Source: Escherichia phage Phi1
DNA: 64,000 bases
Sequence record: EF437941
Reading direction: 5' to 3' (one strand)
Shown: piece by piece, positions 7,966 through 52,017 of the stretch
Layout: each line of letters starts with the position of its first letter
Numbering within the stretch: position 1 is the first letter of the stretch
The notes under the pieces: model-generated
What the model was told of the DNA's origin: nothing
The model's database searches: none
What the model saw: only the letters and a program-made list of their open reading frames with translations
Made by a program: the position numbers and the translations under genes

Positions 7966-8279
7966 TATCCTAAAATCCTCACCTTGCGAACACAGATAGT
8001 ATTGAGTTCTCGCCGTACCCGTTCTTTTTCATATTCCGGAATTTTATATTCGATACCATCCCGAACAATGTCAGAGGACCGGATTATACCAAATTTCCTT
8101 TTGGGCACAACCTTGTATTTCGGTTCACCTGCTAATAGACTCTCACGATAATCTATCTGATCACACATTGACGCTAACGCAGCATCATGTGTTTCGCAAG
8201 TTAGGACGCGACCCTTCGCGTCCACTGAGTATTGAAAGAATCCGTCTTTATCACGATAACATACAGCAAATACATGCAT
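7965..8279 (-). CDS. hypothetical protein (dda.1 position)
   Basis: 104-aa ORF, stop overlaps dda start (TAATG). Confidence 0.5.
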   Translation of the reverse strand: MHVFAVCYRDKDGFFQYSVDAKGRVLTCETHDAALASMCDQIDYRESLLAGEPKYKVVPKRKFGIIRSSDIVRDGIEYKIPEYEKERVRRELNTICVRKVRILG

Positions 8280-9034
8280 TATAAACCTACCTTCGCTTTC
8301 ATCAATTCAATCCACGACGCATCAATCGGAAGCCCGTATTTCACGCGTTCTTTTTGTGCTGGCGTTAAGTTCTCATACTTAGAAAGAGATTCAATCAAAA
8401 CGCTGGTATATTTTAGCACGATTTCGGTATTGTTTGCAATAGCCTTAAGTTTTTCTTCTTTCTTGTTGATTTCGCTAAGTGCTTGCTTGAGATCTGCAAT
8501 TTTCTGATAACGTTCTTCCATACGGAAGAGAGTATTTTTAATCGCTCGCTCGGCTGCCTCTGCTTTCTCCGGTTCGTTGTGCTTTTTGTGGCGCTCGATT
8601 GCTAATTTCTTTTCTTCGATTGCCAGTTCCTGATTTTTGATGCGATTCTCGTTAAGTTCGATCCACTCGATGTACTTCGCACGTAGGGCAATTTCATCAT
8701 CAGAAAGTTTACCGTTAGTTCCTAGTTCCTGGATCTCTTTAAGAGATTCGATAGTGTGATTGCCACGGAAAGAATTATATTTCAGTTTAACCGGAATTAC
8801 ATTGCCATCAACATATCCCAGATTGCAATCAATGCGCTCTAAGGAGAGTCCGTCATCACCTTCACCGAAAGCCTCACCCGAATAGGCGCAACGAGTCTGA
8901 CGGTAAATGTTGCGCACAGTGACTAAGCTCATAGAGAAGTCTTTGTTGCGACGTGAAGCGCCAGCCATGATAGAGTTCAGACGGAAAACAACCAGCGCCA
9001 ATTCTTCGTTAGATTTAAAAGCAAATAGTTTCAT
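8279..9034 (-). CDS. hypothetical protein at srd position (possible Srd-like)
   Basis: 251 aa, coiled-coil C-terminal half; assignment positional only. Confidence 0.5.
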   Translation of the reverse strand: MKLFAFKSNEELALVVFRLNSIMAGASRRNKDFSMSLVTVRNIYRQTRCAYSGEAFGEGDDGLSLERIDCNLGYVDGNVIPVKLKYNSFRGNHTIESLKEIQELGTNGKLSDDEIALRAKYIEWIELNENRIKNQELAIEEKKLAIERHKKHNEPEKAEAAERAIKNTLFRMEERYQKIADLKQALSEINKKEEKLKAIANNTEIVLKYTSVLIESLSKYENLTPAQKERVKYGLPIDASWIELMKAKVGL

Positions 9035-9095: not shown

Positions 9096-9599
9096 TTAAA
9101 TTAAAGAAAATTTGTAAATCTCTATCAGATCGCCGTTACACGCGTAAACTTCCTCGATCTCATCAAGGATCATGGTCGTCCCTGTCTTGTATATGCACTC
9201 GCGCTCATCTGCCAACATAGCATACAAAGACAGTCGAGTAGTCGGATTGTCATACTCTTTAGACACCACTCGGTCAATAGCATGTTCGTAATAATTCATG
9301 CAAGGCTTGGTGGGTTTTATCGCAATAATCTTTCCTGTTGCATAAACATCGGTTGCAAAGTCCTCGGCTGTTGATTGCAGTGGCGTAAAGCTCATAGGAC
9401 GCTCTACAACGAAAGAATCACCTACAATTAAGGTATCCAACTTACGGCCTTCTCTTTTGCTCACACCGCGATACAAGGCTTCATGATGCACTAACCGTTC
9501 AGTCTTTTCGATCAATCCATTAAGGATCGACATATCGATATTTTCTTTAGAGTTCATCACTTCATCAATGATATTAAGTTCTTCTGGTGTAAATTGCAT
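9096..9599 (-). CDS. ADP-ribosyltransferase, ModA/ModB-like
   Basis: candidate R-S-ExE triad (YRG ... SFT ... ERE) in order; position between srd-like gene and gene 56 as modA/modB in T4; internal ATG with GGAGG RBS. Confidence 0.5.
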   Translation of the reverse strand: MQFTPEELNIIDEVMNSKENIDMSILNGLIEKTERLVHHEALYRGVSKREGRKLDTLIVGDSFVVERPMSFTPLQSTAEDFATDVYATGKIIAIKPTKPCMNYYEHAIDRVVSKEYDNPTTRLSLYAMLADERECIYKTGTTMILDEIEEVYACNGDLIEIYKFSLI

Positions 9600-9667
9600 A
9601 ATAAAAAGCCTCCAATCTTTCGACGGGAGGCATAATAAAACCATTATAGATTAGTGTCAACTAATTT

Positions 9668-10192
9668 TTAGTAGCCGCGTTCTTGACGGGCGAAGTTTTC
9701 AGCATTTTTCAGATAGTACAGAATAAAGAGTTCTTGAGCCTCAATACCCAGCGGGATCATCTTTGACAGAATGAAGTGGATAGCGTCCACAAATTCAAAT
9801 TTCACTTCAAGCTGATCTTCTGGTGACAGTTCAGAGAATTTACGCGCTCGCGCTTCCCCGTGGTTCTTTTTCCACATTTTCCAGATTGCGCTTGCATCTT
9901 TACCGTTGGACATTCCACCCAGCGATGTGTAAAGCTCTCGTGTTTCGTCTGCGATAGCGTCATCCATCCGTTGCATCCAATCCAGCATTTCACCGCAAGT
10001 CTCTAGCTTAGTTGGATTTGGGACCCAATCAAATTTTTCGGATAATGCAACCTGCAAACCAGTTTGCATTTCGAGCATCACCTGAAACGGATCTTTACCT
10101 TCTGCAATCGCGTGATGATATGCGGCGATAGCCGCGTTAATATCTTTTTCGTTAACCAGACCAGCACAAGAATTAAATTCTGACATATTCAC
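9668..10192 (-). CDS. 56: dCTP pyrophosphatase gp56 (MazG-like)
   Basis: 174 aa; C-terminal LYYLKNAENFARQERGY and central MazG-like helices match T4 gp56 as remembered. Confidence 0.8.
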   Translation of the reverse strand: MNMSEFNSCAGLVNEKDINAAIAAYHHAIAEGKDPFQVMLEMQTGLQVALSEKFDWVPNPTKLETCGEMLDWMQRMDDAIADETRELYTSLGGMSNGKDASAIWKMWKKNHGEARARKFSELSPEDQLEVKFEFVDAIHFILSKMIPLGIEAQELFILYYLKNAENFARQERGY

Positions 10193-48390: not shown

Positions 48391-48423
48391 AAGTCATTCC
48401 CCCAGATTTAAAATATTCAGTTA

Positions 48424-48431
48424 TATTTATA
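48424..48431 (-). promoter_or_regulatory. T4-type late promoter motif TATAAATA
   Basis: exact TATAAATA on minus strand about 35 nt upstream of the rI-like ATG. Confidence 0.45.
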
Positions 48432-48458
48432 ATCTGGGGCTTTATTTATGATTAACTC

Positions 48459-49055
48459 TTATTTGGTAGTACCGTCAATAAAATGTTTACGGCACACAGA
48501 AACATATTTATCCTCTGCACCAACTTCTATTTGAGCACCATCGCGAATAACATTACCATCTTTATCTACTCGAAGGACCATTGTTGCTTTCTTGCCACAA
48601 TGACAAATACCCTTCATTTCGACCAGCTTATCGGCAAATGCCATTAATGCCGCAGATCCTTCAAATAGATTGCCCTGAAAGTCAGTGCGAAGGCCATAGC
48701 ACAGTACAGGGATATTTGCATCATCAACAAGCGCACACAAGCCTAAAACATGCTCTTTAGTCATAAATTGGGCTTCGTCTACAAAAACTGCATCTGGACG
48801 CCATCGATCCGGTCTACGCTTACCTAACGATTCACGATAAACCAAGTCGAAAAGATCATCAGATTTAGTGAAGGTGATCGCTGGAGCACTTAGGCCAATT
48901 CGGGAAACGACTTCACTTTCTGAATCTCGATTATCAATCGCTGGCTTAAGAATTAATACTCGCATATCACGTTCGGTATAGTTATAAGCACTTTGTAATA
49001 GGGAAGTTGATTTGCCAGCGTTCATAGATGCATAGTAGAAATATAATTGCGCCAT
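48459..49055 (-). CDS. tk: thymidine kinase
   Basis: 198 aa; P-loop MNAGKST, VDEAQF, zinc ribbon CHCGKKA ... CRKH. Confidence 0.9.
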   Translation of the reverse strand: MAQLYFYYASMNAGKSTSLLQSAYNYTERDMRVLILKPAIDNRDSESEVVSRIGLSAPAITFTKSDDLFDLVYRESLGKRRPDRWRPDAVFVDEAQFMTKEHVLGLCALVDDANIPVLCYGLRTDFQGNLFEGSAALMAFADKLVEMKGICHCGKKATMVLRVDKDGNVIRDGAQIEVGAEDKYVSVCRKHFIDGTTK

Positions 49056-49348
49056 TAATTAATCTCCAAAAATCCAGCAAGACCTAAACCGATATAAGTC
49101 CATATACCAATAAAAAAGATGTTAATGCTCATGGCAAGGATAAACCCTTTCAGCGTTTTGGGATACCCAACCCAATATTCCCGACCATCTTCTAACCGGA
49201 TCAACTTATTGCCTTGCGAGTCCATATCAACTACAACATGTTTATTTCGAGATTGCACTAGATATTGTTTTACAATCTCTACACCCGCCATAATAACAAT
49301 AACGAAAATAAAAGTCCACACAACAAGATTAATGATAGTCTCAAGCAT
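49055..49348 (-). CDS. hypothetical membrane protein
   Basis: 97 aa, two hydrophobic segments. Confidence 0.5.
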   Translation of the reverse strand: MLETIINLVVWTFIFVIVIMAGVEIVKQYLVQSRNKHVVVDMDSQGNKLIRLEDGREYWVGYPKTLKGFILAMSINIFFIGIWTYIGLGLAGFLEIN

Positions 49349-49391
49349 TTTCTATCACCTCCACCCAATCAGGTGTTTCCTGAAAGACTCC

Positions 49392-49583
49392 TTAGCCTTC
49401 ATGATGGTCGCAACCTTTATTGCTACAGTACATCCACCAATCCCACATTCCCCACGGTAAACGCTGCATATCGTCGTTACAACAAGTGAAGATGATAGGC
49501 CAACCACATCTAACACATCGGCAGTTTTCTTTCATGTGAGCGGTATTAGGCTTCTTCATAGATGACTCCAATATAATCGACAT
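49392..49583 (-). CDS. Cys-rich small protein
   Basis: 63 aa; CRCVRCG ... CCND ... CSNKGC. Confidence 0.4.
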   Translation of the reverse strand: MSIILESSMKKPNTAHMKENCRCVRCGWPIIFTCCNDDMQRLPWGMWDWWMYCSNKGCDHHEG

Positions 49584-49786
49584 TTACATTTAGGGCAATG
49601 CGGTTCTTTAATATAATACCCGTCTGTCTTTGGAACACTAACAGGAGCGGTTTTTATATTATATTCAGTGAAACAACGAAAACAAGTTACGTTTTCTACA
49701 GACTGACGTTTCACCCAATCACCGGAATATAGATCATTTTTATTTGTCATATTCAACCACCACAATGTTAATGTCTGGAGTAGCAA
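49556..49786 (-). CDS. Cys-rich small protein (zinc-ribbon-like)
   Basis: CFRCF ... CPKCKC. Confidence 0.4.
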   Translation of the reverse strand: MLLQTLTLWWLNMTNKNDLYSGDWVKRQSVENVTCFRCFTEYNIKTAPVSVPKTDGYYIKEPHCPKCKCRLYWSHL

Positions 49787-50195
49787 TATTAATAATCTCT
49801 TCTACACATTCCCACTCAAGGCCACCGATACCGCAACCGATTTTAGGAATATAGAAAGGCTGTATAGCACCTTCAAAAACATCATTGAGAGACTCAAATC
49901 CTTTCAGGATAGCACCATATTCAGCATTTGGACCCGGTCGGAATTGGGTATAGAGATTCACCCCGCACCAGTTATAACCATTAACTTGATGCGTCCAGAT
50001 ACTAAACCCACCCAACTTTTCTACCTTACCGCGAGAAGTTTGCTTGTCAATCTCTAACGCTTGCGGGAACTCTTTCGCGATCTTTGCAGCAATACCAGCG
50101 CCCATAGTATGAAAACAATTACAACCATGAATTAAATGACCGTTTCCTTGTTTAAACAGGGCGATGAGATCGCCCTTTACAGTATCAATAATCAT
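49740..50195 (-). CDS. macro domain protein (ADP-ribose binding/processing)
   Basis: 151 aa; HGCNCFHTMGAGIA and GCGIGG motifs typical of macro domains. Confidence 0.65.
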   Translation of the reverse strand: MIIDTVKGDLIALFKQGNGHLIHGCNCFHTMGAGIAAKIAKEFPQALEIDKQTSRGKVEKLGGFSIWTHQVNGYNWCGVNLYTQFRPGPNAEYGAILKGFESLNDVFEGAIQPFYIPKIGCGIGGLEWECVEEIINIATPDINIVVVEYDK

Positions 50196-50210
50196 AATAT
50201 AAACCTCTCA

Positions 50211-50570
50211 TTAGTCACGGGAAGACAACCCAGCCATAAAACGGCTTAACAGTGTGTCGCGATAAGCAAAGCATAATTGCTTATCAGGGGCAGTATCACA
50301 CAGGTTGCGTTTTGTTTTAGCAAAGCTGGCAATACTCAGATCCCATGCTCGATTTTTTCGTTTTTCGTCTCGACCTTGTTTGTATGCTTCATCAAGTTCG
50401 AGCGCGATAAAATCACTACACATGTTATCATCATCACAGAAAGTTTTAATTATCTTTTTGTTGATCTCAAATCCTTTGTATTCGAACTTTGGATAAGGGC
50501 GCTCATTACTAGCAAGCGCACCAGCCGAGAACATCATAGCAATCATAGCAATTATTGTCAACTTTTTCAT
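50211..50570 (-). CDS. secreted/periplasmic hypothetical protein
   Basis: 119 aa; N-terminal signal peptide (MKKLTIIAMIAMMFSAGALA), four Cys. Confidence 0.5.
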   Translation of the reverse strand: MKKLTIIAMIAMMFSAGALASNERPYPKFEYKGFEINKKIIKTFCDDDNMCSDFIALELDEAYKQGRDEKRKNRAWDLSIASFAKTKRNLCDTAPDKQLCFAYRDTLLSRFMAGLSSRD

Positions 50571-50577
50571 ATATTCC

Positions 50578-51168
50578 TCAATAGCGTTTAGTCTTAAGAA
50601 TGCCTTTACTCTTTAGATGGTTAGCCTTTTTTAGTACGTCATCAGCATAACCTAATCCGGCTTTATAGTTCCATCCAGCATTGTAAGAAGCTAGCGCGAG
50701 TCGGATATTACCGTTTCGAATATCCAGCCAGTATGCTAACTCATCCATCGCGTAGAATGCAGAAACCTCGCGATTCATGATAAAGTTGATAGTCTGGCGA
50801 TCACTCATTTTAACACCACGCTTTGCATTTTTCGCTTTCACCGTTTTAAGGTAATTTTGAAATAATCCATAAGCATGATGATTTTTCTTTGGTGCTAAGT
50901 TTGCACCCGCGCTTGATTCTTGCCATGCGATACCCGCTAGGATGTGGCCTAAACCCTTTCCGTTATAGCGAATATTCGGATGGTACTTTTTCAACTTACC
51001 GCTTTTCTCGAATTGCTCGCCGTATTGATAGGCGAAATGTAAATTATCTAGTTGGTGTGCTGTAAAGTTGTCTATCGGCGCTTTTTTGATCGGTGCGCTA
51101 GTCGATGCGTGTGTAGCACCAACGGCTAGTGACAGACTCAATACTATCGCTTTTAGAACTTTTAACAT
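50578..51168 (-). CDS. soluble lytic transglycosylase-like protein with signal peptide
   Basis: 196 aa; signal peptide; SLT motifs GIAWQES (catalytic Glu) and SYNAG. Confidence 0.65.
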   Translation of the reverse strand: MLKVLKAIVLSLSLAVGATHASTSAPIKKAPIDNFTAHQLDNLHFAYQYGEQFEKSGKLKKYHPNIRYNGKGLGHILAGIAWQESSAGANLAPKKNHHAYGLFQNYLKTVKAKNAKRGVKMSDRQTINFIMNREVSAFYAMDELAYWLDIRNGNIRLALASYNAGWNYKAGLGYADDVLKKANHLKSKGILKTKRY

Positions 51169-51204
51169 TAATTTCTCCTGTTTGGCTTAACTTTCTGATT
51201 CCAT

Positions 51205-51231
51205 AATATAGCCCTATCACCAGAAAGTCAA
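51205..51231 (-). promoter_or_regulatory. promoter (TTGACT-N15-TATATT; possible MotA-box-like TGCTTGA)
   Basis: minus strand AATGCTTGACT...TATATT upstream of SLT gene. Confidence 0.35.
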
Positions 51232-51254
51232 GCATTATTTTTAACCAATTTCCA

Positions 51255-51677
51255 TTATTGGTCTACCTTCAAAACAACCGCCGACATTTTACCCGCCAGT
51301 CGTTTTGGATTCTCTATAATCATTCGGCAGCATAGACCGTGATATGGCTTACCCTCTTCGATTAGATCTACTGTCATCCCGATCCACATGTTACCGTCAG
51401 TAATTTCTAATCGATTAGGTCGGTCTTCCATTTTCAGGAAGTCGAAGATCTCCGGCAAACGAGTTTCTATCTTATTGAATAGTTCCATTGTCTTATGTTC
51501 ATCAATATGACGATCGGTTAGACGGTCGATCATATGCGGACTAAAGCGAATGAAAATATACTCACCATAACCATCATTCAAGCACTTTTCTTTGATCTTC
51601 GCATTGGTTTTGCGCATTTCGGTTTCGAAGAATCTACGCAGCTTACTACGGCGAACATGTACGTTAATTGTTTCCAT
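51255..51677 (-). CDS. regB: RegB site-specific endoribonuclease
   Basis: RRSKLRRFFETE, RLEITDGNMWIGMTV, CRMIIENPKRLAGK match T4 RegB as remembered; start at ATG after AAGGA. Confidence 0.85.
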   Translation of the reverse strand: METINVHVRRSKLRRFFETEMRKTNAKIKEKCLNDGYGEYIFIRFSPHMIDRLTDRHIDEHKTMELFNKIETRLPEIFDFLKMEDRPNRLEITDGNMWIGMTVDLIEEGKPYHGLCCRMIIENPKRLAGKMSAVVLKVDQ

Positions 51678-51681
51678 TTTA

Positions 51682-52017
51682 TTATCCTTTCTTAAACAAA
51701 TTGCGAATCCAGTATACAAACGGGATTTCTTTAAACTTGAATTTCTCTATAGTTAATTCTTTAGTAGCAAGATGAATACCATAAGCATCATGTGTCACGA
51801 TATGCCATTTTCTATAGTCCAAATGTGAACAACCGTCTGGATCTAGGTTAATAAGAGTTTCTCGCTCACTAGGATTATTTTTCCACAATTTTGTAATAGG
51901 ATCGCACATAATTCGACCTAGCGTACCATGAATAATCTCACAACGGTAAAGTTTTCCAGCAGTGAGATAGGCGCACCCGTCATAGTCGGTATAAACAAAC
52001 ACTTCTTTAACACTCAT
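51682..52017 (-). CDS. paralog family C protein
   Basis: DGCAYL ... DPDGCSHLDYRKW; internal ATG after AAGGAG. Confidence 0.5.
   Translation of the reverse strand: MSVKEVFVYTDYDGCAYLTAGKLYRCEIIHGTLGRIMCDPITKLWKNNPSERETLINLDPDGCSHLDYRKWHIVTHDAYGIHLATKELTIEKFKFKEIPFVYWIRNLFKKG

What the first reader, a model, noticed from the sequence alone, without database searches (positions are those of the whole stretch)
49740..50195. Macro-domain protein in the tk-regB interval
HGCNCFHTMGAGIA and GCGIGG motifs indicate a macro domain (ADP-ribose binding or hydrolysis). Macro domains can reverse ADP-ribosylation, so this may counter ADP-ribosylating host defences (DarT-like) or regulate the phage's own ModA/ModB-type enzyme (9096..9599).
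Basis: partly seen in the sequence, partly recalled or inferred. Interest (0 to 1): 0.55.

Follow-up and report, generated by a model that had tools for sequence, protein, structure and literature searches.

The report
Phage Tk.4/AdfM macrodomain, anti-DarTG2 factor

The parts
49740..50195 (-). tk.4/adfM ortholog: 151-aa stand-alone macrodomain. Key residues: H23, N26, the G32-A-G34 loop, N80-x-Y82-T83-Q84, and the P117-x-I-G120-x-G122-I-G-G125 loop.
50196..50210 (-). 15-nt vs/tk.4 intergenic spacer holding the ribosome-binding site (GAGAGG, 8 nt before the ATG)
   Evidence: Read directly from the sequence...UAA UGAGAGGUUUAUAUU AUG.
50211..50570 (-). Upstream co-oriented gene vs (valyl-tRNA synthetase modifier family). 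It serves as a synteny anchor.
   Evidence: phrog_1256, 1.8e-33. Occupies the same position as T4 vs.
50578..51168 (-). vs.1 (SLT-domain protein). Synteny anchor.
   Evidence: Pfam SLT. 53% identical to T4 Vs.1.
51255..51719 (-). regB endoribonuclease. Synteny anchor. The true start is probably the internal ATG, as annotated in JSE.
   Evidence: Pfam REGB_T4, 1.6e-48. JSE annotation.
49556..49750 (-). Downstream small zinc-binding-domain gene. Its ATG overlaps the tk.4 stop, which suggests translational coupling.
   Evidence: Pfam PF23903, 1.8e-23, and phrog_4864 matching from residue 13. Overlap ATGACAAATAA. The JSE annotation has the same 11-nt overlap.
48459..49055 (-). tk thymidine kinase. 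Synteny anchor.
   Evidence: Pfam TK, 1e-51. 53% identical to T4 Tk.

Best explanation
The gene is the Krischvirus ortholog of T4 tk.4 (adfM), a stand-alone macrodomain of the ALC1-like class (the class containing TARG1, DarG, Poa1p and BT1257). It is transcribed with the regB-vs.1-vs-tk.4-tk block. Its most likely job is as an 'orphan antitoxin-like' ADP-ribosylglycohydrolase. When the host DarT2 toxin ADP-ribosylates thymidines in single-stranded phage DNA, the macrodomain binds the ADP-ribose in its cleft (N26, the G32-A-G34 loop and the G120-x-G122 loop) and hydrolyses the base-ribose bond. That restores replicable DNA and lets the phage grow on DarTG2 hosts. The chemistry is probably not DarG's lysine-dependent route. 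The catalytic Lys position is Gln84 here and in T4 Tk.4, as in S. coelicolor SCO6735, where Gln85 is essential and a water-mediated mechanism was proposed. What is shown: the ORF, the macro fold, the class, orthology with T4 Tk.4, the Gln at the catalytic position, and purifying selection. What is shown only for relatives: the anti-DarTG2 phenotype (T4), removal of DarT2 ADP-ribose from DNA in vitro (PhiKZ AdfM, which is Lys-type), and cleavage of thymidine-linked ADP-ribose on DNA in vitro (SCO6735, which is Gln-type). What is inferred: that this protein does the same.

For: Orthology: 44% identity, E 4e-45, end to end with T4 Tk.4. The gene order regB-vs.1-vs-tk.4-...-tk is identical in T4 and JSE. 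RB49 and JSE annotate the gene as tk.4. There is one copy per genome.

Function of the ortholog: tk.4 was the only significant HIDEN-SEQ hit on DarTG2, and the knockout was sensitised. Before that, T4 lacking adfA and adfN was known to remain DarTG2-resistant (PMC11825919).

Biochemical precedent: PhiKZ AdfM removes DarT2 ADP-ribose from DNA, and its N23A mutant is impaired (PMC13309987). N26 is invariant here (62/62). SCO6735 cleaves dT-ADPr, and its Q85A mutant is dead (PMC9411070). Q84 aligns to SCO6735 Gln85, to the BT1257 Gln, and to Lys80 of DarG and Lys84 of TARG1. It is conserved in 61/62 homologs and in 79/80 bacterial relatives.

The only hit in NCBIfam and in PADLOC is DarG. dN/dS is 0.18, and every substitution lies outside the motifs.
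Against: Nothing has been measured on this protein or on any Krischvirus. Function is transferred across 44% identity. Even for T4, enzymatic removal of ADP-ribose from DNA is inferred in the preprint, not shown. The DarG catalytic lysine is absent. DarG-model scores are weak (49.5 bits against a cut-off of 250 in NCBIfam; 52 bits in PADLOC against 133 for PhiKZ AdfM). The family is roughly equidistant from BT1257, SCO6735, DarG, TARG1 and Poa1p, so substrate specificity cannot be read from sequence. The closest cellular relatives are not DarT-linked, so the family's ancestral role may be something else. The Q84 equivalence rests on profile alignments and a published structural alignment. I could not superpose coordinates.
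Confidence: 0.7

Rival explanations
1. It blocks DarT2 stoichiometrically, by binding the toxin or shielding ADP-ribosylated DNA, rather than by hydrolysis. On this view it is an inhibitor or reader, not an eraser.
For: Catalytically dead SCO6735 Q85A, DarG K80A and TARG1 K84A all still inhibit DarT in vitro by interaction, and SCO6735 does so most strongly (PMC9411070). The canonical catalytic Lys is missing here.
Against: The protein lacks DarG's C-terminal DarT-binding domain; it matches only positions 2-141 of the 338-position DarG model. The active-site residues N26, Q84 and the glycine loops are near-invariant across distant phage and bacterial homologs that face different or no DarT proteins. 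That pattern fits catalysis better than partner binding.
Confidence: 0.1
2. It is a metabolic ADP-ribose-derivative hydrolase: an ADP-ribose-1''-phosphate phosphatase like yeast Poa1p, or an O-acetyl-ADP-ribose deacetylase. This is what the 'phosphatase' and 'A1pp' database labels imply.
Against: These labels are inherited from domain names, not from assays. Residue 30, which by my own reading of the Poa1p sequence (recalled from memory, not a tool alignment) corresponds to Poa1p S30, is not conserved in this family (T 39, I 5, S 4, M 3, V 3, A 2 of 62). The only phenotype found for the T4 ortholog is DarTG2-specific. From my own knowledge, no phage or E. coli pathway is known to need Appr-1''-p removal during T-even infection.
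Confidence: 0.08
3. It reverses or tunes ADP-ribosylation (or RNAylation) laid down by the phage's own ModB-like/Alt enzymes.
For: A ModB-like ART is present in the same window at 9096..9644. Writer/eraser pairs are common in ADP-ribosylation systems.
Against: T4 Alt and ModA are reported to modify arginine; the review does not give ModB's target residue. Arginine linkages are cleaved by DraG/ARH-type enzymes, while TARG1/MacroD-type macrodomains cleave ester linkages (PMC8120803). The two genes lie 40 kb apart and are not co-located. Tk.4-like macrodomains occur in at least 511 bacterial species and in many phage families that are not known to carry Mod/Alt. In the preprint, tk.4 insertions were depleted specifically in the presence of DarTG2.
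Confidence: 0.04
4. Its main or additional target is a different ADP-ribosylating immunity system: RNA- or protein-targeting ARTs, or other DarT variants. On this view DarTG2 is only one substrate source.
For: SCO6735 acts on both DNA and protein substrates. Stand-alone relatives are widespread in bacteria with no DarT nearby. The authors of PMC11825919 speculate that anti-DarT factors may also detoxify other DNA or RNA ADP-ribosylating defences.
Against: There is no direct evidence. The only screen reported links tk.4 to DarTG2.
Confidence: 0.08

Closest known systems
T4 Tk.4 = AdfM (anti-DarT factor Macrodomain; bioRxiv 10.1101/2025.11.20.689424)
   Same: Stand-alone macrodomain of about 150 aa. 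44% identical end to end. Same position between vs and tk. Same HGCNCFHTMG, NLYTQF and P-x-IG-x-GIG motifs, including Gln at the catalytic-Lys position.
   Different: A different genus (Krischvirus rather than Tequatrovirus). The diphosphate-loop residue 125 is Gly here and Lys in T4. This protein scores higher than T4 Tk.4 against DarG models (49.5 vs 30.3 bits in NCBIfam; 52 vs 36 bits in PADLOC). It is untested experimentally.
PhiKZ gp104 'AdfM' (PMC13309987)
   Same: A phage-encoded stand-alone macrodomain in the same PHROG (phrog_335). The conserved Asn is present (N23 in PhiKZ, N26 here). The proposed role is the same, and for PhiKZ it is biochemically shown: removal of DarT2 ADP-ribose from DNA.
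   Different: PhiKZ is Lys-type (FPTK) and far closer to DarG (133 bits against 52). It matches this family's profile only weakly (hhalign 26% identity, E 2.9e-10) and is imported into a phage nucleus. The shared name covers two distinct lineages.
DarG antitoxin macrodomain (M. tuberculosis / T. aquaticus; PDB 5M3I, 5M31)
   Different: No C-terminal DarT-binding domain. No adjacent DarT. Lys80 is replaced by Gln. It is far below the NCBIfam equivalog cut-off.
S. coelicolor SCO6735 (PDB 5E3B) and B. thetaiotaomicron BT1257 (PDB 2FG1/2AFC)
   Different: Only 21-24% identical. They have a mobile loop 5-6 residues longer after the Gln, carrying Lys89 and Lys93, and a GGWGKG first loop instead of TMGAG.
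Human TARG1/OARD1 and yeast Poa1p
   Same: Same ALC1-like class. Top Foldseek hits.
   Different: TARG1 uses a Lys84/Asp125 dyad, which is absent here. Poa1p is a phosphatase with Ser at the position of Q84 by my own reading of its sequence (recalled from memory, not a tool alignment).

Membership tests
Macro domain (Pfam PF01661) | Score above the Pfam gathering cut-off over the whole domain | tested here: met
   29.9 bits against a cut-off of 22; residues 22-135 cover profile positions 1-118 of 118.
Macro domain (Pfam PF01661) | Three-layer alpha/beta/alpha macro fold | tested here: met
ALC1-like macrodomain class (TARG1 / DarG / Poa1p / BT1257 / SCO6735) | Closest structural and sequence neighbours belong to this class rather than to the MacroD, PARG or macroH2A classes | tested here: met
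T4 Tk.4 / AdfM orthologous group | Full-length similarity plus conserved genomic position, single copy | tested here: met
   44% identity, E 4e-45, residues 1-150 against 1-152. Order regB-vs.1-vs-tk.4-...-tk in T4, JSE and the window. One place per record. No second macro gene in the window.
T4 Tk.4 / AdfM orthologous group | Required for growth on DarTG2-expressing hosts | not testable with these tools
   Shown only for T4. It needs a deletion mutant of this phage.
DarG antitoxin (NCBIfam NF048014 equivalog) | Score above the equivalog cut-off; two-domain architecture with a C-terminal DarT-binding domain | tested here: not met
   49.5 bits against a cut-off of 250. Only model positions 2-141 of 338 are matched, and the protein is 151 aa.
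DarG antitoxin (NCBIfam NF048014 equivalog) | Catalytic Lys80 (PTK motif) | tested here: not met
   Gln84 aligns to Lys80 in three independent alignments. It is Gln in 61/62 family members.
DarG antitoxin (NCBIfam NF048014 equivalog) | Encoded next to a DarT toxin | tested here: not met
   tblastn with P. aeruginosa DarT2 finds nothing significant in the window (best E 2.0) or in 80 bacterial loci with Tk.4-like genes (best E 0.8). This was a single query sequence, so sensitivity is limited.
Gln-type DNA ADP-ribosylglycohydrolases (SCO6735-like) | Gln at the TARG1-Lys84/DarG-Lys80 position, plus the conserved Asn that orients it | tested here: met
   Q84 aligns to SCO6735 Gln85 and the BT1257 Gln, and N26 to Asn27. 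The roles of these residues are described in PMC9411070.
Gln-type DNA ADP-ribosylglycohydrolases (SCO6735-like) | Extended basic mobile loop (Lys89/Lys93) and Lys34 for DNA binding | tested here: not met
   SCO6735 and BT1257 carry a 5-6 residue insertion after the Gln that the Tk.4 family lacks. The Lys34 position is Ala33 here.
Gln-type DNA ADP-ribosylglycohydrolases (SCO6735-like) | Hydrolysis of thymidine-linked ADP-ribose on ssDNA | not testable with these tools
   Needs a biochemical assay.
Poa1p-like ADP-ribose-1''-phosphate phosphatases | The residues mutated in the deposited Poa1p structures, presumably functionally important (His23, Ser30) | tested here: inconclusive
   H23 is present (59/62). 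Position 30 is Thr here but variable in the family. The Poa1p mutant names come from PDB entries 6LFS and 6LFT, and the residue correspondence was made by eye from my recollection of the Poa1p sequence.

The most novel reading that the evidence does not exclude
The T-even 'AdfM' lineage (Tk.4) is not a captured DarG antitoxin. It is a phage copy of a widespread, stand-alone, DarT-independent bacterial macrodomain family that uses a lysine-free, Gln84-dependent mechanism like SCO6735. If so, two unrelated macrodomain lineages (Lys-type PhiKZ AdfM and Gln-type Tk.4) converged on anti-DarT2 activity. The more than 500 bacterial species carrying Tk.4-like genes would then hold a 'genome guardian' against incoming DNA ADP-ribosylating toxins, possibly with a wider substrate range than thymidine-ADP-ribose.
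Probability: 0.4. Interest if true: 0.4.

Novelty: already known. Interest (0 to 1): 0.22.

Why it matters
For this window the finding mainly corrects the annotation. Public records call this protein 'hypothetical protein' or 'phosphatase', while the best current evidence makes it an anti-DarTG2 counter-defence factor. That helps predict host range for RB49-like therapeutic phages on DarTG2-carrying E. coli. The Gln-for-Lys active site is a modest mechanistic point. It suggests that T-even AdfM works like SCO6735 rather than DarG, which would affect the choice of catalytic-dead controls (Q84A or N26A, not a Lys mutant). It also separates Tk.4 from the PhiKZ protein that shares its name.

Tried and rejected
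(1) I looked for a DarT toxin next to the gene or next to its bacterial relatives, to test the 'orphan antitoxin' origin. tblastn with P. aeruginosa DarT2 found none. Only one DarT2 query was used, so distant DarTs could be missed.

(2) I clustered all flanking ORFs of 80 bacterial loci to find a conserved partner gene. None emerged. The only recurrent cluster is an antisense shadow ORF over the macro gene itself; otherwise the neighbours are taxon-specific housekeeping genes.

(3) I searched the window for the other T-even anti-DarT factor, adfA (T4 61.2). No homolog was found at E of 1e-3 or better. adfN (30.3) was not searched for.

(4) A small 7-sequence MAFFT alignment with reference macrodomains misplaced the SCO6735/BT1257 'NMIGQH' segment into an insertion. 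I rejected it in favour of the HMM profile alignments and the published structure-based alignment.

(5) A near-consensus sigma-70 site sits just inside vs (50561..50533, 11 of 12 matches with an extended -10 TG) and could drive tk.4. It has no counterpart in T4 and is only a pattern match, so I did not build on it.

(6) T4 tk.1, tk.2, tk.3 and vs give no tblastn hit in the window. vs is recovered only by the PHROG profile.

(7) I considered the 'phosphatase' label to be inherited annotation rather than evidence.

Full report
OBSERVATION. HGCNCFHTMGAGIA occupies residues 23-36 and GCGIGG residues 120-125. It lies in a co-oriented minus-strand block: tk (48459..49055), a 97-aa ORF, two small zinc-binding-domain ORFs, this gene, vs (50211..50570), vs.1 (50578..51168) and regB (51255..51719). 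A GAGAGG ribosome-binding site sits 8 nt before the ATG. The stop codon overlaps the next gene's start (ATGACAAATAA).

WHAT THE WINDOW IS. Megablast of 48400-51800 finds 57 phage records at 90-99% identity. All listed hits are Krischvirus members or RB49/JSE-like coliphages (RB49, JSE, GEC-3S, Cognac and others). The protein is 100% identical to the copies in phages Cognac, JEP8 and AV108. In RB49 and JSE the gene is annotated tk.4. Other records call it 'macro domain protein', 'phosphatase' or 'hypothetical protein'.

IS IT A MACRODOMAIN? Yes.
- Pfam Macro scores 29.9 bits against a gathering cut-off of 22, across the whole model.
- phrog_335 gives 1.5e-62.
- Single-sequence phmmer against PDB sequences finds M. 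tuberculosis DarG macrodomain (5M3I, 9e-8), BT1257, TARG1/OARD1 and SCO6735.
- A 62-sequence family profile raises these hits to 1e-12 to 4e-15.
- The AlphaFold2 model built on that alignment has mean pLDDT 94 and pTM 0.89, with an alternating strand/helix pattern.
- Foldseek against the PDB puts TARG1 first (E 1.3e-10, TM 0.75-0.81), followed by Poa1p, T. aquaticus and M. tuberculosis DarG, BT1257 and SCO6735.

ORTHOLOGY WITH T4 tk.4. T4 Tk.4 (NC_000866 60922-61389) aligns end to end at 44% identity, E 4e-45. It sits in the same place: regB, vs.1, vs, tk.4, three small genes, tk. JSE has the same order. Each Krischvirus record listed has one copy, and the window has no second macro gene. Against a diverged Krischvirus allele (LF73P4, 83% aa identity), dN/dS is 0.18. 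All 27 substitutions fall outside residues 1-47, 80-93 and 113-136, which hold the motifs. The gene is therefore functional and constrained.

WHAT IS KNOWN ABOUT THE ORTHOLOG. A November 2025 preprint (bioRxiv 10.1101/2025.11.20.689424) used transposon-insertion sequencing of T4. It found tk.4 to be the single significant hit depleted on DarTG2-expressing E. coli, and a clean knockout sensitised T4 to DarTG2. The authors renamed the gene adfM (anti-DarT factor Macrodomain). They state that enzymatic removal of ADP-ribose from DNA 'seems likely', so it was not shown. This fits the earlier finding that T4 lacking adfA and adfN stays DarTG2-resistant (PMC11825919). Independently, a 2026 Cell Reports paper (PMC13309987) gave the name AdfM to PhiKZ gp104. 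It showed in vitro removal of DarT2-placed ADP-ribose from a TNTC oligonucleotide, loss of activity in N23A, rescue of DarT2 toxicity, and DarTG2 sensitivity of the deletion phage.

ACTIVE SITE: A GLN-TYPE ENZYME. In DarG and TARG1 the key catalytic residue is a lysine (Lys80 and Lys84, in the motif [PI]-T-K). PhiKZ AdfM has it too (FPTKDNW). In this protein the aligned residue is Gln84 (N-L-Y-T-Q-F). Three independent alignments agree: phmmer, the family HMM and hhalign against PhiKZ gp104. T4 Tk.4 has the same NLYTQF. In the 62-sequence alignment the position is Gln in 61 and Lys in 1. N26 (the Asn mutated in PhiKZ N23A), G24, M31, G34, A36, D50, N80, Y82, P117, G120 and G122 are invariant.

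The family HMM aligns Q84 to the Gln of BT1257 and to Gln85 of SCO6735. For SCO6735, PMC9411070 reports several things:
- Gln85 is structurally equivalent to TARG1 Lys84 and DarG Lys80.
- Q85A abolishes activity.
- The enzyme cleaves thymidine-linked ADP-ribose on DNA and protects S. coelicolor from DarT.
- A water-activated mechanism is proposed.
- Asn27 helps lock Gln85 in the right rotamer.
- Inactive mutants still inhibit DarT by interaction.
A lysine-free macrodomain of this class can therefore do the DarG reaction. Tk.4 differs from SCO6735 and BT1257 in lacking their 5-6-residue longer basic loop and Lys34. Its diphosphate loop (GCGIGGLEW) looks more like that of DarG (GVGNGGLDW).

DISTANCE FROM DarG. 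The only NCBIfam hit is antitoxin_DarG, but at 49.5 bits against a cut-off of 250, covering only the macro part (positions 2-141 of 338). PADLOC DarG gives 52 bits for this protein, 36 for T4 Tk.4 and 133 for PhiKZ gp104. The two proteins called 'AdfM' are different lineages of one PHROG, one Lys-type and DarG-like, the other Gln-type.

CELLULAR RELATIVES. A scan of one genome per bacterial and archaeal species with the family motif found 511 loci encoding relatives. The best 80 are 36-47% identical and come from Desulfobacterales, Roseobacter-group bacteria, Shewanella, Pseudoalteromonas, Bacteroidota, Verrucomicrobiota and others, many on megabase contigs. All 80 are stand-alone ORFs of 140-190 aa, and 79 carry N-x-Y-[TS]-Q. 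None has a DarT2-like gene within 4 kb (single query). No neighbouring gene family is conserved across taxa. This favours acquisition from stand-alone bacterial macrodomains over direct capture of a DarG antitoxin. No rooted phylogeny was made, and the motif-based scan pre-selects this subfamily.

SPREAD IN PHAGES. tblastn finds the protein in 2734 of 50,697 phage records at E of 1e-5 or better. These include T4-like phages of Escherichia, Klebsiella, Acinetobacter, Aeromonas and Vibrio, Vequintavirus, phages of about 83-98 kb infecting Escherichia, Shigella and Pseudomonas (e.g. SP22, K5), and Salmonella, Klebsiella and Serratia phages of about 157 kb (e.g. GG32). The nearest non-Krischvirus relatives are Vequintavirus proteins at 67-70% identity, well above the 44% to T4.

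THE ModA/ModB ALTERNATIVE. The ORF at 9096..9644 is a ModB-like ADP-ribosyltransferase (phrog_832 5e-21; 33% identity to T4 ModB) next to srd. According to PMC8120803, ModA targets Arg265 of RNA polymerase alpha and Alt targets Arg84 of MazF; ModB's target residue is not given there. The same review states that arginine and serine linkages are cleaved by DraG/ARH enzymes, whereas MacroD- and TARG1-like macrodomains break ester linkages. The two genes are 40 kb apart, and the family is common in genomes without Mod/Alt. I give this reading about 4%.

VERDICT. The gene is the Krischvirus tk.4/adfM ortholog, and its most likely function is removal of DarT2-placed ADP-ribose from phage ssDNA (confidence about 0.7). 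The steps from T4 genetics and from SCO6735 and PhiKZ biochemistry to this protein are inferred. The kind is already known, and the macro domain is already annotated in several public records. The one point I did not find stated in the papers I read is that the T-even AdfM lineage is Gln-type (SCO6735-like) and distinct from the Lys-type PhiKZ AdfM and DarG. Interest is low (0.22).

Noticed in passing
window 49740..50195 compared with Vequintavirus records (e.g. OK272482 49894-50352 = L085:2501-2959): The Krischvirus macrodomain is 67-70% identical to those of rV5-like Vequintavirus coliphages (JLBYU08, ECP2303, Bas59) but only 44-52% identical to those of T4-like Tequatrovirus and Mosigvirus. 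In Vequintavirus the gene sits in a different context, near an SSB gene. This suggests exchange of the gene between unrelated E. coli phage families.
   Followed up: partly
window 50211..50570 (-), gene vs; T4 L001:4387-4734: Both this Vs and T4 Vs ('valyl-tRNA synthetase modifier') begin with what looks by eye like a cleavable signal peptide (MKKLTIIAMIAMMFSAGALA|SNE; MTKILVLCIGLISFSASASA|DTS) and contain several cysteines. That is odd for a protein said to modify a cytoplasmic synthetase. The HIDEN-SEQ preprint reports vs as the most depleted T4 gene in minimal medium. No signal-peptide predictor was available.
   Followed up: no
window 50561..50533 (-): A near-consensus sigma-70 promoter-like site (TTGACA-17-TATGAT with an extended -10 TG, 11 of 12 matches) lies just inside the 5' end of vs. 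It would start a transcript that skips the vs start codon and reads into tk.4. There is no equivalent site in T4. This is a pattern match only.
   Followed up: partly
window 49392..49583 and 49556..49750 (-): Between tk.4 and tk, the window has two small zinc-binding-domain genes (Pfam PF23895 and PF23903) and a 97-aa hydrophobic-looking ORF (49055..49348, phrog_16027). T4 has tk.1-tk.3 in this position, and those give no tblastn match in the window.
   Followed up: no
window 9096..9644 (-), with srd at 8279..9034 and a gp56-like NTP pyrophosphatase at 9668..10192: There is a single ModB-like ADP-ribosyltransferase (33% identity to T4 ModB; no separate ModA hit), placed between srd and gene 56. 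In T4 the arrangement is modA-modB upstream of srd. No homolog of the anti-DarT1 factor adfA (T4 61.2) was detected anywhere in the 64-kb window, although 61 and 61.1 are present.
   Followed up: partly
loci L003-L082 (bacterial genome contigs): Stand-alone Tk.4-like, Gln-type macrodomains occur in at least 511 bacterial species representatives, many of them marine or sediment taxa. They have no DarT and no conserved neighbour, and their cellular role appears uncharacterised.
   Followed up: partly
literature (PMC13309987 compared with bioRxiv 10.1101/2025.11.20.689424): The name AdfM was given independently to two different macrodomain lineages: PhiKZ gp104 (Lys-type, DarG-like, 133 bits to PADLOC DarG) and T4 Tk.4 (Gln-type, 36 bits). 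This is likely to cause annotation confusion.
   Followed up: yes
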